From the IMG/VR virus record IMGVR_UViG_2545824688_000002, positions 1 to 64,000 of that record: a stretch of DNA of 64,000 bases. One strand, 5' to 3'. The DNA comes from a virus. Lineage: Duplodnaviria > Caudoviricetes. Each line of letters starts with the position of its first letter. The stretch's first letter is position 1. The notes beneath the pieces are model-generated. The model was not told where the DNA came from. It did not search any database and saw only the letters and a list, made by a program, of their open reading frames with translations. Of this stretch, positions 27,434-48,693 are shown in pieces. Made by a program: the position numbers and the translations under genes.

Positions 27434-29014
27434 TTAAGCCGGTTCACGAGCGCCACCTCCCGGTTCATTAAAAACGGACGAGTCGACGAACCCGGCCGCC
27501 TTCTCATCCGCTTCTATCCGCGCCATAATTTCGCGCGCCTTTTCGTCGTCAACCTCGTCCTGGCGCTTGATCGCGCTCTGAACGTCGATTGTCGGTTTGT
27601 GACCGGTCCGAATCGCCATGATCTCCGCCAATTCCTTTTCGTCACGCGGGATTCCGTCTTTCCACGCGATATTCGGGTACGGCGGATCGTACGAAGTGAA
27701 CTCATCGACGCCTTCGTTCGCGTAGTTTTCGAGAACCATCGCTGTCCATAACGCGTCTCGGAAGGCGCGGTCAACGTGCGTCCGAATCCGCTTGACTTTC
27801 GAGAGGATCGGCATAAACCGTGCCTTGACCGCGACGCCATCGGTGTGTGACGTGCCGGTACCGCCCTTGTCTTCGGAGAGTGTGGTGCCGAATAGCCATT
27901 GCGGTGTTTCGCTCATCTGGAACACGATGCCGAGCAGAATGTCGAGCTCCTTGAACGCACCGTCCAATTGCGAATTCCATGTCATGTATCCGGGTGTGGC
28001 ATCGTCCTTGTCGACCGGAATGTAGCGCCCGGCAAATCGCGTTTCAGCCTCGCCAAGGTCCGGGCCGTAGGCGGTCGGGTCCGAGTGCTTCCACAGGATA
28101 TAGTCGATCTGGACCAGCCGGTCATTGATCGCGGCCAGAACGGATTCGAGCTTTTCGATACCGCTGATTCCGCGCCAATCGATGTCGGTCGTCTTGTACG
28201 GAACGTGGAACACTGGAATACGCGTCAGTCCCGTTTCGACAACGTCCGATTCGCGGCCGGTAGCCACCGCCTCCAAAATCGTAAACGTCTGAATTGGCGC
28301 GTCGTACGTGGTGTCCACGCCGTTTTCCAAGAGCCGGTAGCGTTCGTAGAAGATGAATCCGGGAACGTGACGCTCAACGTTCAGATACGGAACCTCTACG
28401 ACTTCCGGCTGCTTCTTTAGCGAATACTTCTCGATTCCGGGTTTCGTAGGCTCCGCCACCCACTCAACGTACGCGATATTGACCGCCTTGAACCGTTTAC
28501 GGGAGCCGCGTGACAATTCCGGGAACACGTACGACGGGTCGACCGCCTCAATGATCGGTTCGGGCGCGGCAGATACGAGAGGCTTGCCGTCGGCGTCCGC
28601 TGGGACTTCGGACAAATCCTGGCGAACGCCATAGTACACCTTGAGCCACGCGTCTCCACGGATACCTGCGCCGATTACGATTTCGTGACCGAGCTGGTTC
28701 AGGTCGTTCTCTTCAACTATCGAGTTGAGGCGGGTTTGTTCAATGGATGCGTCGGGCTTGCCGGATTCGTAGGACGGGGGCTCTCCGAACATGAGATCGG
28801 CGGGTTTCGTTAGTAATACGTCCATTAAGTTGACCGCGACGTACAGTTTCGCCAATTGCGGCGCGTGCGGTGTGTCGCGCAGTATCTCCGAGGCGCGTTC
28901 GAGGACTTCCGCTTGGCGTCCGTCGAAAATCTTGCCACCGCGATAGTACGTGGCGAGCCGTTCGATGTCGGCGGCTGGCGGGTATTGCGCGCCTGGAACG
29001 AATAGTTTACCGAT
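27434..29014 (-). CDS. Portal protein (SPP1 gp6-like); predicted ATC start
   Basis: Between TerL and the minor capsid gene; AAAGGAGG-8nt-ATC in frame, with TAA two codons upstream. Confidence 0.85.
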   Translation of the reverse strand: MGKLFVPGAQYPPAADIERLATYYRGGKIFDGRQAEVLERASEILRDTPHAPQLAKLYVAVNLMDVLLTKPADLMFGEPPSYESGKPDASIEQTRLNSIVEENDLNQLGHEIVIGAGIRGDAWLKVYYGVRQDLSEVPADADGKPLVSAAPEPIIEAVDPSYVFPELSRGSRKRFKAVNIAYVEWVAEPTKPGIEKYSLKKQPEVVEVPYLNVERHVPGFIFYERYRLLENGVDTTYDAPIQTFTILEAVATGRESDVVETGLTRIPVFHVPYKTTDIDWRGISGIEKLESVLAAINDRLVQIDYILWKHSDPTAYGPDLGEAETRFAGRYIPVDKDDATPGYMTWNSQLDGAFKELDILLGIVFQMSETPQWLFGTTLSEDKGGTGTSHTDGVAVKARFMPILSKVKRIRTHVDRAFRDALWTAMVLENYANEGVDEFTSYDPPYPNIAWKDGIPRDEKELAEIMAIRTGHKPTIDVQSAIKRQDEVDDEKAREIMARIEADEKAAGFVDSSVFNEPGGGAREPA

Positions 29015-29042
29015 GGGTTACGCCTCCTTTCGTTTGGGATTG

Positions 29043-47465: not shown

Positions 47466-47695
47466 TATTCCGCCTCCTTTCGCTTCGCGTCAGCGCGATA
47501 TATCCCAGCATCCCGTTCGAGAGACTTGGCAATATCCACGAGCGCGTCGTAAATGCTTTCGTGATCCTCCGTGTGTAGGGTCGCGGCAAGCTGGCGGAGG
47601 TCATCGGTGGCGACACGGACGGATGCACGGAGTTCGCGGAGTTGGTCCGTCATTTCGTCGTGCTGGTCAATGAATTCGTAGGATACCGTGGGCAT
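47465..47695 (-). CDS. Hypothetical protein
   Basis: Translationally coupled in the operon. Confidence 0.55.
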   Translation of the reverse strand: MPTVSYEFIDQHDEMTDQLRELRASVRVATDDLRQLAATLHTEDHESIYDALVDIAKSLERDAGIYRADAKRKEAE

Positions 47696-48693
47696 TACGC
47701 CGCCCCCTTCTCGCGCACGCTCTTAATAAATTCGTACGCGTCGTAATACTGCTGCTTCTTCCATTCCGGTAGCCGCGACTTCATCATCGCCCGTACCTGG
47801 CCGCCAATCTCCGCGAACTCCTCGTCAGACAGCGAAAGAGCACACGCGGTCTTGTACGAATTGAACGTCCACTTGTCGAGGTCAAGTTTCGGCGGCACTC
47901 CGTTCTTCACCGCACCCACCACGCCAGCCAACTCGTCAAGAAGCGCGGCCCTGTCAGCGTCCGTAAACGTTATATGGAACGGACGCACGTCGGGATTCTT
48001 CGTGTACTCCTCTTCCGTCATCGCCCACGATTTCTTGCTCGCGTTGACATATACGATCAGGTAGTCGTCGAGCGGATCGTCGGGCGTGCCGAACATTTCC
48101 GTATAGCCGACCGTTTGGGCAACATGCTTTTCGTCCGGCGCTTTCATCGAATAGTCGCCCGTTTGGGCCGCCGTTGTCTGCTTCGATTTGATTTCGAGGC
48201 CGACGCGACGTCCGTCTTTATAGCGGAGGATTCCGTCCGGCTTTCCGTAGAGCGCGAACCGGTGGCCGCCGTGCTCGACGATATGGAGTTTCTGCGCGAA
48301 GTTCTCCCACATCGGAAGCCCGTCCGGTGTACGTTCGACCGTGAACGGCGGGGCCTCGCCGAATGTCCGCTCGTAATGGCGTTCGATGAACAGGAGGTCG
48401 CGCTGAATCATATCGCCGATTGCCGTCCCGATCCGTGTCCAGCGGCCTTGGTGCGGTGGTCGCGGCTGAATGTCGCGTTTGGCTCCGAGTAGTTTTACGT
48501 AGAGTTCGCGCGGACAACTGTTGACGGACGAGGGCGAGAAATACGGCTGCGCGCGAAAGTTGAAGAACGGGCGTTTACGTAGTGCTTGCGCGTTCTGTTC
48601 GTGGATTAGCGCGTCGAGATCGTTGTCCCAAACTTCGGGTGCGGAATGCCAGCGGTCGAGCATCGTTAGGAAATCCGTTGCTAATTGTGAGAT
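47695..48693 (-). CDS. PD-(D/E)XK (Cas4/RecB-like) exonuclease; possible ATC start
   Basis: FSPSS..SCPR, GKPDGIL, LEIKSK, Q..GY. Confidence 0.8.
   Translation of the reverse strand: MSQLATDFLTMLDRWHSAPEVWDNDLDALIHEQNAQALRKRPFFNFRAQPYFSPSSVNSCPRELYVKLLGAKRDIQPRPPHQGRWTRIGTAIGDMIQRDLLFIERHYERTFGEAPPFTVERTPDGLPMWENFAQKLHIVEHGGHRFALYGKPDGILRYKDGRRVGLEIKSKQTTAAQTGDYSMKAPDEKHVAQTVGYTEMFGTPDDPLDDYLIVYVNASKKSWAMTEEEYTKNPDVRPFHITFTDADRAALLDELAGVVGAVKNGVPPKLDLDKWTFNSYKTACALSLSDEEFAEIGGQVRAMMKSRLPEWKKQQYYDAYEFIKSVREKGAA

What the first reader, a model, noticed from the sequence alone, without database searches (positions are those of the whole stretch)
27434..48693. Recurrent non-canonical ATC/ATA start codons behind strong RBSs in phage genes
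Seen on the minus strand: portal AAAGGAGG-8nt-ATC (29014), with in-frame TAA two codons earlier and 53 extra codons before the first TTG; RuvC-like GGAGGTG-7nt-ATC (46873), with in-frame TAG upstream and the YIGLDLS catalytic motif reachable only from there; PD-(D/E)XK nuclease GAGGAGG-10nt-ATC (48693); 3D protein AAAGGAGG-8nt-ATA (41559); possibly GGGGTGA-5nt-ATA (36814). Portal and RuvC are the strong cases. Known: AUU/AUC/AUA starts are discriminated against by IF3 (infC autoregulation). Inference: this many cases is unlikely to be decay; it may be stoichiometric down-tuning or a translational control layer that responds to IF3 activity during lytic growth.
Basis: partly seen in the sequence, partly recalled or inferred. 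Interest (0 to 1): 0.75.

Follow-up and report, generated by a model that had tools for sequence, protein, structure and literature searches.

The report
Phage genes starting at ATC/ATA codons
Four, probably five, genes of this 72-kb phage of spore-forming bacteria, including its portal and two DNA-cutting enzymes, begin at the weak start codons ATC or ATA behind strong ribosome-binding sites; related phages have kept this habit, so it looks like inherited low-level expression that gene finders miss.

Summary
In this 72,427-bp virus record, four genes have no usable ATG/GTG/TTG start. Each has ATC or ATA 8-10 nt after a strong Shine-Dalgarno site, at the very 5' end of the open frame: portal (29014), 3D-domain protein (41559), RuvC (46873) and a PD-(D/E)XK nuclease (48693). 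A fifth (36814) is probable.

These are not errors or decay:
- Orthologues in related phages and prophages keep ATC/ATT/ATA at the same position.
- More distant orthologues have TTG/ATG/GTG exactly there.
- dN/dS is 0.09-0.32 over whole genes and 0-0.36 over the portal and RuvC N-terminal segments (3D segment: not informative).
- Isolated Paenibacillus larvae phages carry ATC (nuclease) and CTG (RuvC), and public annotations truncate both genes.

A home-made caller flags 23 of 435 genes in six related phage records but 2 of 602 host genes, one of which is infC.

Best reading: inherited near-cognate starts behind extended SDs that hold down the output of low-copy or toxic proteins. High-copy head and tail genes use ATG. 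IF3-responsive control is possible but untested.

The mechanism is a known kind (infC, pcnB, S. aureus ccpN/cvfC1, E. faecalis ebpA). This scan's notes report the same habit in at least nine other genomes.

The parts
27434..29014 (-). Portal gene (526 aa, SPP1 Gp6-like), read from ATC 29014-29012
   Evidence: Pfam PF05133 E 6e-13; the match starts at residue 17 = profile position 15. phrog_533 portal. Homologues align from residue 1 and start there with TTG/ATG/GTG or ATH.
29015..29030 (-). Portal ribosome-binding site: AAAGGAGG (29030-29023) plus 8-nt spacer; in-frame TAA at 29020-29018
   Evidence: Read; duplex energy -14.7. The identical 20-nt context plus ATC is present in Brevibacillus phage MRSA107.
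41203..41559 (-). 3D-domain protein gene (118 aa, hydrophobic N-terminus), read from ATA 41559-41557
   Evidence: Pfam PF06725 E 3e-6; phrog_6631 and others. In viral contigs, unique orthologues are ATC 9, ATT 1, ATG 3, TTG 1, unclear 2.
41560..41575 (-). 3D gene ribosome-binding site: AAAGGAGG (41575-41568) plus 8-nt spacer. It lies 18 nt after the stop of the thymidylate-synthase gene (41578-41580).
46346..46873 (-). RuvC-like resolvase gene (175 aa), read from ATC 46873-46871
   Evidence: Pfam PF02075 E 3e-9, residue 8 = profile position 2; NCBIfam RuvC hits below cut-off. Of 10 relatives read (11 loci fetched; L047, a fragment, was not read): ATC 2, ATA 3, CTG 1, TTG with weak SD 1, GTG 1, ambiguous 1, none found 1.
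46874..46887 (-). RuvC ribosome-binding site: GGAGGTG (46887-46881) plus 7-nt spacer. The start overlaps the end of the upstream polymerase exonuclease-subunit gene (stop 46860-46862) by 14 nt.
47695..48693 (-). PD-(D/E)XK (Cas4 / lambda-exonuclease-like) nuclease gene (332 aa), read from ATC 48693-48691
   Evidence: phrog_1706 E 1e-60. Invariant D153...E167-x-K169 in 17 aligned sequences. AlphaFold model pLDDT 86.9. Foldseek top hits are Cas4 SSO0001, lambda exonuclease and the AdnAB nuclease domain. Orthologues: 9 of 9 ATH; in 36 viral loci TTG 24, GTG 1, ATH 8, ATG 0.
48694..48710 (-). Nuclease ribosome-binding site: GAGGAGG (48710-48704) plus 10-nt spacer. The start overlaps the end of the DNA polymerase gene (stop 48681-48683) by 13 nt.
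36299..36814 (-). Gene of unknown function (171 aa, phrog_13088), probably read from ATA 36814-36812 behind GGGGTGA (36826-36820). GTG 36823, inside the SD, is the alternative.
   Evidence: The closest relative, L129, has ATG behind AAGGAGG at the exactly aligned position, 11 residues before YFRGH.

Best explanation
These are genuine translation start sites. The initiator tRNA pairs with a near-cognate AUC or AUA codon that an extended Shine-Dalgarno site holds in the P site, 8-10 nt downstream of the GGAGG core. The design is inherited within a lineage of temperate phages with contractile, PBSX-like tails that infect Brevibacillus, Paenibacillus and related Bacillales. It affects about one gene in twenty. 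The affected genes encode proteins needed in few copies or harmful in excess: portal, Holliday-junction resolvase, a Cas4-like exonuclease and a small secreted 3D-domain wall protein here; also TerL, a sigma factor and a lysin-like tail protein in relatives. The most likely function is to keep the strong SD while cutting initiation to a fraction of what ATG would give.

Shown: position, conservation, purifying selection and enrichment over the host.
Inferred: that the codons initiate in vivo, and that the purpose is low output.
For: 1. Domains need the upstream codons. The portal Pfam match begins at profile position 15 at residue 17. RuvC begins at profile position 2 at residue 8, with the catalytic YIGLDLS upstream of the first GTG.

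2. Homologous start position. Portal relatives begin M/L/V-[GTSA]-K-L-F at the codon aligned with the window's ATC. Of 115 loci: TTG 52, ATG 28, ATC 14, GTG 5, ATT 4, ATA 4, unclear 8. After removing identical proteins, 94 rows including the window remain: TTG 42, ATG 20, ATC 13, GTG 5, ATT 4, ATA 4, unclear 6.

3. Persistence.
- The window sits in an all-ATC clade of 4 rows (support 95) inside a 12-row clade (support 100) with ATC 8, ATT 1, GTG 1, TTG 1 and unclear 1.
- Another clade carries ATC, ATT and ATA in its three members.
- The portal keeps ATC against L037 and L051 at dS 0.93 and 1.30.

4. Other genes.
- Nuclease orthologues: 9 of 9 ATH in one set. In 36 viral loci: TTG 24, GTG 1, ATH 8, ATG 0, unclear 1, duplicates 2.
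- 3D orthologues: ATH 10, ATG 3, TTG 1, unclear 2, duplicates 2, of 18 loci.
- RuvC: ATC 2, ATA 3, CTG 1 of 10 loci.

5. Purifying selection. Whole-gene dN/dS is 0.09-0.32 in the 8 of 9 pairs with a usable dS (portal vs L053 was saturated). The segments between ATH and the first canonical codon give 0.10-0.27 (portal) and 0-0.36 (RuvC).

6. Viable phages share the trait. P. larvae phages Tripp and Unity have ATC (SD -11.2) at the nuclease start and CTG (SD -14) at the RuvC start. Their annotated starts lie 53 and 16 codons (nuclease) and 101 and 17 codons (RuvC) further down, without an SD.

7. Enrichment. 23 of 435 phage genes are flagged against 2 of 602 host genes. One host hit is infC with ATT behind GGAGGTG (Fisher p = 1.7e-7).

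8. Stoichiometry. Major head, scaffold, minor head, tail sheath and tail tube genes start with ATG; TerL starts with TTG; portal with ATC.

9. Stronger SDs with weak codons. In the portal family, weak codons pair with stronger SDs: median -14.7 (ATH), -14.5 (TTG), -12.4 (ATG). ATH against ATG, Mann-Whitney p = 0.02, not corrected for kinship.

10. Precedent. In S. aureus, AUU/AUA starts behind extended SDs were mapped by Ribo-Ret and gave about 10% (up to 30%) of AUG reporter output (PMC13009471, passages). E. faecalis ebpA ATT lowers expression (PMC4447247, abstract).
Against: - There is no direct evidence of initiation: no ribosome profiling, N-terminal peptides or reporters for any of these genes.
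- No RNA run holding the stretch was listed, and the contigs laid did not show the start positions.
- The gene and start caller is home-made, and its ATH threshold (SD of -10.5 or lower) shapes the counts. At least 1 of the 23 phage calls is false (a tail-chaperone frameshift ORF) and 1 is ambiguous (ATG-ATC in L044).
- Family counts are not phylogenetically independent. Some genome and viral loci may be the same prophage.
- The 14-codon N-terminal segment of the 3D gene gave dN/dS of 0.69-1.96 on very few sites. For that gene the ATG six codons downstream (41541, no SD) is not excluded by selection data.
- For 36814 the close relative has ATG.
- Low output is inferred from other species, not measured here.
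Confidence: 0.75

Rival explanations
1. IF3-responsive control layer. The AUH starts make these phage genes rise when free IF3 falls relative to ribosomes, as infC does. This would give the phage a timer or a read-out of host translational state during induction.
For: Hosts of related prophages use ATT behind GGAGGTG (energy -13.8) for infC in 4 of 4 Paenibacillus loci read, so IF3-sensitive initiation of this design exists in these cells. ccpN AUA efficiency in S. aureus changes with medium (PMC13009471, passages). IF3 overexpression blocked M13 propagation in E. coli (PMC2268962, abstract). The closest relatives keep ATH rather than TTG for the 3D, RuvC and nuclease genes.
Against: Nothing here measures IF3. 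The AUH genes belong to different modules (replication/recombination and head), so they are not one temporal class. At the homologous portal start, ATH and TTG/ATG/GTG interchange at least 10 times. The nuclease family is mostly TTG. TTG is not discriminated by IF3 in the way AUH is (established knowledge, recalled), so selection seems to act on amount. No tRNA gene was found in the window, and none of the PHROG names returned for the 25 window proteins searched is a translation-factor name. The other genes were not searched, and several of the 25 returned no named function.
Confidence: 0.15
2. Coupling-dependent restarts. The AUH codons are used mainly by ribosomes that have just terminated on the upstream gene. 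Output would then be a fixed fraction of the upstream gene's translation, and a weak codon is tolerated because the ribosome is delivered locally.
For: All four starts lie close to the upstream stop: 28 nt (TerL to portal) and 18 nt (thymidylate synthase to 3D) after it, and 14 nt (polymerase exonuclease subunit to RuvC) and 13 nt (DNA polymerase to nuclease) before it. Re-initiation uses initiator tRNA and is IF3-sensitive in E. coli (PMC2268962, abstract).
Against: Most genes of this compact contig are equally close to their neighbours yet use ATG/GTG/TTG, so proximity does not set the four apart. The SDs are among the strongest in the contig, which argues for SD-directed placement whether the ribosome is new or recycled. 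This is a refinement of the main explanation, not an alternative to AUH initiation.
Confidence: 0.15
3. The real starts are the downstream ATG/GTG/TTG codons. The upstream in-frame stretches would be untranslated, and the SD plus ATH arrangement would be coincidence.
For: Gene finders and public records choose such codons. For the 3D gene an ATG lies only six codons downstream, and N-terminal dN/dS is uninformative.
Against: The downstream codons have no SD (energies +1.9, -3.3, -3.3, +0.3) in a genome where nearly every gene has one. They would remove Pfam positions 1-60 of the portal and the first catalytic Asp motif of RuvC. The N-terminal segments are under purifying selection in portal and RuvC. 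Relatives place canonical starts at the ATH position, not at the downstream one.
Confidence: 0.04
4. Sequencing or assembly errors, or start-codon mutations in a decaying prophage.
For: The window comes from a single virus record. Raw reads of its own sample could not be examined at these positions.
Against: The same codon class recurs in independent records: MRSA107, many IMG/VR contigs, isolate genomes and isolated P. larvae phages. Frames are intact and dN/dS is well below 1. Three of the five related records fetched whole are rated 100% complete, the others 99% and 81%.
Confidence: 0.02

Closest known systems
infC (IF3) AUU/AUA start codon and its autoregulation; E. coli pcnB AUU
   Same: A near-cognate AUH initiation codon lowers output and is discriminated against by IF3 (established knowledge, recalled). 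The hosts of related prophages have ATT behind GGAGGTG at infC, the same layout as the phage sites.
   Different: infC is a single host gene with a demonstrated feedback loop. Here several unrelated phage genes carry the codon, no feedback is known, and nothing was measured.
S. aureus cvfC1 (AUU), ccpN (AUA, conserved in B. subtilis) and citZ (AUA) behind extended SDs (PMC13009471; passages read)
   Same: Bacillota; a very strong extended SD directs selection of AUU/AUA. The codon and SD are conserved among relatives. Output is about 10-30% of AUG.
   Different: Those are chromosomal regulators found one at a time: four sites in a whole genome. Here about 5% of the genes of a phage lineage are affected, including virion and recombination genes, and AUC is the commonest codon.
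E. faecalis ebpA ATT start (PMC4447247; abstract read)
   Same: A rare ATT start in a Bacillota gene was mis-annotated at a downstream ATG and shown to attenuate expression.
   Different: A single pilus gene with experimental proof. No phage context.
Streptomyces sigR GTC start repressed by IF3 (PMC5472188; search listing and start of abstract only)
   Same: A non-canonical start used as a translational control point through IF3.
   Different: Actinobacterium, a different codon, one regulator gene.
Other phage genomes noted in this scan (e1-3266756, e1-5352991, e1-5974323, e1-6168363, e1-5996985)
   Same: AI notes report AUU/AUC/AUA (and CTG) starts behind strong SDs on portal, terminase, 3D protein and other phage genes, inherited among relatives and missed by gene callers.
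   Different: Different genomes. The notes were not checked here, except that P. larvae phages Tripp and Unity were read directly.

Membership tests
Attenuating near-cognate (AUH) start sites behind extended SDs (infC / ccpN type) | Conserved coding sequence extends upstream of the first ATG/GTG/TTG up to the AUH codon | tested here: met
   Pfam N-terminal coverage. Homologues align from residue 1. N-terminal dN/dS is 0.10-0.27 (portal) and 0-0.36 (RuvC). Weak for the 3D gene.
Attenuating near-cognate (AUH) start sites behind extended SDs (infC / ccpN type) | Strong or extended SD at functional spacing before the AUH codon | tested here: met
   Energies -12.0 to -14.7; spacers of 8, 8, 9 and 10 nt after GGAGG.
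Attenuating near-cognate (AUH) start sites behind extended SDs (infC / ccpN type) | The non-canonical codon is conserved in orthologues | tested here: met
Attenuating near-cognate (AUH) start sites behind extended SDs (infC / ccpN type) | Initiating ribosome or N-terminus mapped to the codon | not testable with these tools
   No RNA holder was listed, and contigs cannot show starts.
Attenuating near-cognate (AUH) start sites behind extended SDs (infC / ccpN type) | Lower output than with AUG; sensitivity to IF3 | not testable with these tools
   Inferred from PMC13009471 and PMC4447247 only.
SPP1 Gp6-like portal (PF05133) | Profile match above the curated cut-off | tested here: met
   48.9 bits against a cut-off of 25.5; phrog_533.
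RuvC resolvase (PF02075) | Profile match over the full length, including the first acidic motif | tested here: met
   37.5 bits against 22.2, profile positions 2-147 of 148; YIGLDLS read. NCBIfam equivalog cut-offs are not reached, so this is RuvC-like, not the bacterial equivalog.
PD-(D/E)XK nucleases (Cas4 / lambda exonuclease-like) | D...(D/E)-x-K motif and the fold | tested here: met
   Invariant D153, E167 and K169. Foldseek hits to Cas4 SSO0001 (E 8e-7), lambda exonuclease and AdnAB, with modest TM scores of 0.3-0.5. No Pfam or NCBIfam hit.
3D domain (PF06725) | Profile match above the cut-off | tested here: met
   27.8 bits against 23.8.

The most novel reading that the evidence does not exclude
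The AUH starts form a phage-wide translational regulon keyed to host IF3, the same sensor that sets infC. When free IF3 per ribosome drops after induction or in a given growth state, portal, resolvase, nuclease and wall-protein synthesis would rise together. The phage would thereby get a promoter-independent timer or a host-state gauge. Selection would act against ATG at these positions, not merely tolerate its absence.
Probability: 0.15. Interest if true: 0.8.

Novelty: new member of a known kind. Interest (0 to 1): 0.55.

Why it matters
First, annotation. Standard gene finders allow only ATG/GTG/TTG (recalled). They therefore cut 53 residues off this portal and remove the catalytic motif of RuvC. 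Public records of isolated P. larvae phages show exactly such truncations. Truncated proteins then spread into protein databases, structure predictions and family models.

Second, biology. A phage lineage that keeps AUH on about 5% of its genes, some twenty-fold above the host rate, gives a natural set of sites for asking two questions. How do Bacillota ribosomes select near-cognate codons behind extended SDs? And do phages use start-codon choice, rather than SD strength, to set protein ratios within long operons?

Third, the portal family offers a ready evolutionary series for quantitative tests: TTG 42, ATH 21, ATG 20 and GTG 5 among 94 unique sequences, 6 of them unclear.

I found no paper describing this habit in phages. 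Four of the five searches returned none in their listings. The fifth led to the 48-genome P. larvae phage paper, which does not mention non-canonical starts (term search of the main text). Supplements were not available.

Tried and rejected
- Sequencing runs: 5 runs from 2 studies hold at most 0.29 of the sampled words, and no RNA holder is listed.
- Laying four runs: only contigs of relatives 90-97% alike were laid. The table of differing letters was cut off before the start-codon positions, so it gives no information on 46871-46873 or 48691-48693 and nothing on expression.
- tRNA scan of the window: none found, so no phage initiator-tRNA variant.
- Pfam at E up to 5 and NCBIfam gave nothing for the nuclease or the 36814 gene. 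A PDB sequence search gave only an 80-residue uncharacterised protein. The nuclease fold was therefore settled by model and Foldseek.
- The first literature search was swamped by unrelated matches to 'att'. A second returned mostly mitochondrial genome notes.
- G005 61-aa ORF: the caller flagged it as an ATA start. It is homologous to window ORF 19978-20202, between the XkdN-like chaperone and the tape measure, so it is taken to be a frameshift extension, not an AUH start.
- G006 host hit (ATA, 740-aa frame): its R/A/H-rich translation looks like an antisense frame. It was counted against my reading all the same.
- Host-wide loose start selection was considered and rejected on the host controls.
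- Expensive protein-database searches (search for homologous proteins, the search of protein representatives) and complex prediction were not used, because the loci already answered the question.

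
Full report
WHAT THE WINDOW IS. The window is the first 64,000 bases of a 72,427-bp virus record with one contig and no N. Nearly all genes lie on the minus strand. PHROG matches name the following genes:
- packaging and head: small and large terminase, portal, minor head protein, scaffold, major head protein;
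- tail: tail sheath, tail tube-like protein, an XkdN-like chaperone, tape measure, baseplate proteins;
- replication: DNA polymerase, a polymerase exonuclease subunit, ribonucleotide reductase, thymidylate synthase, a RuvC-like resolvase and a sigma factor.

This is a temperate-type phage with a contractile, PBSX-like tail. Its closest portal relatives are Brevibacillus phage MRSA107 (81% identity) and prophages of Brevibacillus, Paenibacillus, Cohnella and related genera.

THE OBSERVATION. I read every site on the minus strand.

I then scored every candidate start (ATG, GTG, TTG, CTG, ATT, ATC, ATA) of every likely gene by its duplex energy with the anti-SD. Nearly all genes have a canonical start with an energy of -8 or lower. 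Four genes do not. In these the best canonical codon scores +1.9 to -3.3 at the first candidate. An ATC or ATA within six codons of the frame's opening scores -12.0 to -14.7.
- portal: ATC 29014
- 3D protein: ATA 41559
- RuvC: ATC 46873
- nuclease: ATC 48693

A fifth gene (36299-36814) has ATA 36814 at -9.0. An in-frame GTG sits inside its own SD.

A contig-wide scan with no gene model found the same four as the only strong-SD near-cognate sites at the 5' end of a coding frame that otherwise lacks a start.

THE CODING SEQUENCE REACHES THE ATH CODONS.
- The portal's Pfam match starts at residue 17 of the ATC-initiated protein, which is profile position 15.
- RuvC starts at residue 8, which is profile position 2. 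The YIGLDLS motif lies upstream of the first GTG.
- The nuclease has no Pfam or NCBIfam match, but it matches phrog_1706. It has invariant D153, E167 and K169 in a 17-sequence alignment. It folds with pLDDT 86.9 into a structure whose best PDB matches are Cas4 SSO0001, lambda exonuclease and the AdnAB nuclease domain.

RELATIVES: PORTAL. I fetched 36 genome loci and 80 viral-contig loci. The MRSA107 record was fetched as well. I called the start at the position aligned with the window's first residues, preferring a canonical codon whenever one had an SD of -8 or lower. Two of the 36 genome loci, both short fragments, were left out.
- Of 115 loci: TTG 52, ATG 28, ATC 14, GTG 5, ATT 4, ATA 4, unclear 8.
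- Four partial proteins and identical sequences were then dropped. That leaves 94 rows including the window: TTG 42, ATG 20, ATC 13, GTG 5, ATT 4, ATA 4, unclear 6.
- The canonical starts sit at the homologous codon (for example LGKLF or MGKLF against IGKLF), which fixes the start position.
- MRSA107 has the same 20-nt leader and ATC.
- On a FastTree tree the window lies in an all-ATC clade of four rows (support 95). That clade sits inside a 12-row clade (support 100) with ATC 8, ATT 1, GTG 1, TTG 1 and unclear 1.
- A separate three-row clade has ATC, ATT and ATA.
- At least 10 ATH/canonical changes are needed on the tree.

ATH is therefore both recurrent and long-lived, and it interchanges with TTG.

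RELATIVES: THE OTHER GENES. Eleven RuvC loci with 7-kb flanks also carried the nuclease and 3D genes.
- RuvC: ATC in 2, ATA in 3, CTG in 1, TTG with weak SD in 1, GTG in 1, ambiguous ATG-ATC in 1, nothing found in 1, of 10 read.
- Nuclease, first set: ATH in 9 of 9 (ATC 5, ATT 3, ATA 1).
- Nuclease, 36 further viral loci: TTG 24, GTG 1, ATC 3, ATT 3, ATA 2, ATG 0, unclear 1, duplicates 2. Three of these contigs overlap the first set. The TTG forms carry a longer N-terminus, so their starts are not at the homologous codon.
- 3D protein, 18 viral loci: ATC 9, ATT 1, ATG 3 (the most distant), TTG 1, unclear 2, duplicates 2.
- The 36814 gene: only two relatives were found. The close one has ATG behind AAGGAGG at the exactly aligned position. 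This case remains probable, not firm.

SELECTION. Nei-Gojobori estimates between the window and relatives were taken for nine pairs.
- Whole-gene dN/dS is 0.09-0.32 in the eight pairs with a usable dS, at dS of 0.54-1.30. In the ninth pair, portal against L053, synonymous sites were saturated.
- For the stretch between the ATH and the first canonical codon, dN/dS is 0.10-0.27 (portal, 53 codons) and 0-0.36 (RuvC, 23 codons).
- For the 10-codon nuclease stretch it is 0.09 and 0.49.
- The 14-codon 3D stretch is too short to tell (0.69 and 1.96).

The genes are maintained, the N-terminal stretches of portal and RuvC are coding, and ATH persists while synonymous sites approach saturation.

HOW COMMON, AND IS IT THE HOST? 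I fetched five related virus records whole and 400 kb from each of two host genomes that carry related prophages. A single home-made caller was run on all of them.
- Phage records: 4 of 78 genes flagged in the window's record; 5/71, 4/80, 4/71, 3/58 and 3/77 in the relatives. That is 23 of 435.
- Host records: 1 of 318 and 1 of 284. Fisher p = 1.7e-7.
- The Paenibacillus host hit is infC itself, with ATT behind GGAGGTG. This serves as a positive control for the caller.
- All four Paenibacillus infC loci read have this ATT. The Brevibacillus locus was not picked up by my motif.
- The other host hit looks like an antisense frame.
- One phage hit is a tail-chaperone frameshift ORF and one is ambiguous.

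In the relatives, ATH also marks TerL, a lysin-like tail protein and a sigma factor. Their homologues in the window start with TTG 30746, TTG 17616 and ATG 37571. The habit belongs to the phage lineage, not to host translation in general.

VIABLE PHAGES AND PUBLIC ANNOTATION. The nuclease has orthologues in isolated phages. In P. larvae phages Tripp and Unity:
- The frame opens with ATC behind AAAGGGGGAG (-11.2). The records start the CDS 53 and 16 codons further down, at ATGs without an SD.
- The adjacent RuvC opens with CTG behind GGAGGTGA (-14). It is annotated 101 and 17 codons further down, which loses the YLGLDLS motif.

Bacillus phages 268TH002 and KLEB27-1 use TTG and GTG for the nuclease and are annotated there.

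MECHANISM. What is shown is the layout: an extended SD, an 8-10 nt spacer after GGAGG, and then AUH. In the portal family, weak codons go with stronger SDs. The medians are -14.7 for ATH, -14.5 for TTG and -12.4 for ATG. ATH against ATG gives p = 0.02, uncorrected for kinship.

That such sites initiate, and at what level, rests on other Bacillota:
- In S. aureus, Ribo-Ret mapped AUU/AUA starts of infC, cvfC1, ccpN and citZ behind extended SDs. Reporters gave about 10% of AUG, and up to 30% for ccpN in rich medium (PMC13009471, passages).
- E. faecalis ebpA ATT lowers expression (PMC4447247, abstract).

Within the window, the high-copy head and tail genes start with ATG, TerL with TTG and portal with ATC. 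Resolvase and exonuclease are plausibly harmful in excess (inference). I therefore read the AUH codons as inherited attenuators of output.

All four starts lie within 28 nt after, or 14 nt before, the upstream stop. Recycled ribosomes may therefore contribute. Most genes here are equally tightly packed, so this does not distinguish the four.

The IF3 idea remains open. The sensor exists in the hosts, but the free ATH/TTG interchange points to tuning of amount.

NOVELTY. The mechanism is a known kind. Its conserved, multi-gene use in a phage lineage was not found in print (see Why it matters for the searches and their limits). Notes of this scan report the same habit in at least nine other genomes. 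I did not check them, apart from reading Tripp and Unity myself.

Noticed in passing
window 19978-20202 (-), between 20187-20570 and 18022-19977: A 74-codon open frame with coding-like composition has no SD-linked start. It lies between the XkdN-like tail chaperone and the tape measure. This is probably the frameshift extension of the chaperone (a gpG/gpGT-type arrangement). Its homologue in G005 was wrongly flagged as an ATA start by my caller.
   Followed up: partly
host genomes G007-G010: Each of the four Paenibacillus genomes holds a second, weaker IF3_C-domain gene (56-58 bits in three, 46.7 in the fourth; all over the family's cut-off) besides infC. The Brevibacillus genome G006 holds one. 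A second IF3 paralogue could bear on start-codon stringency in these hosts.
   Followed up: no
L248 (phage Tripp) and L249 (phage Unity): Public annotations of the Cas4-like nuclease and RuvC genes of these isolated P. larvae phages start 16-101 codons downstream of the SD-linked ATC/CTG. The two records disagree with each other.
   Followed up: yes
window 30746, 17616, 37571 (-) and G001/G003 loci L131, L132, L140, L141: TerL (TTG), a lysin-like tail protein (TTG) and a sigma factor (ATG) of the window have orthologues in relatives G001/G003 that start with ATC, ATA and ATC at the aligned first residue. Which genes carry ATH therefore shifts among close relatives.
   Followed up: partly
window 46887-47489, run X5: A contig of a metagenome run joins 46887 to 47489 with 8 other letters between. 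It comes from a relative that lacks the polymerase exonuclease-subunit gene that lies between the nuclease/76-aa gene block and RuvC here.
   Followed up: no
window 48694-48703 (-) and relatives L039, L040, L041, L198: The spacer before the nuclease ATC contains an out-of-frame ATG (GATGCCTT/GATGACGCCTT) that is conserved in several relatives. It lies inside the C-terminal codons of the overlapping DNA polymerase gene, which may explain the conservation.
   Followed up: no
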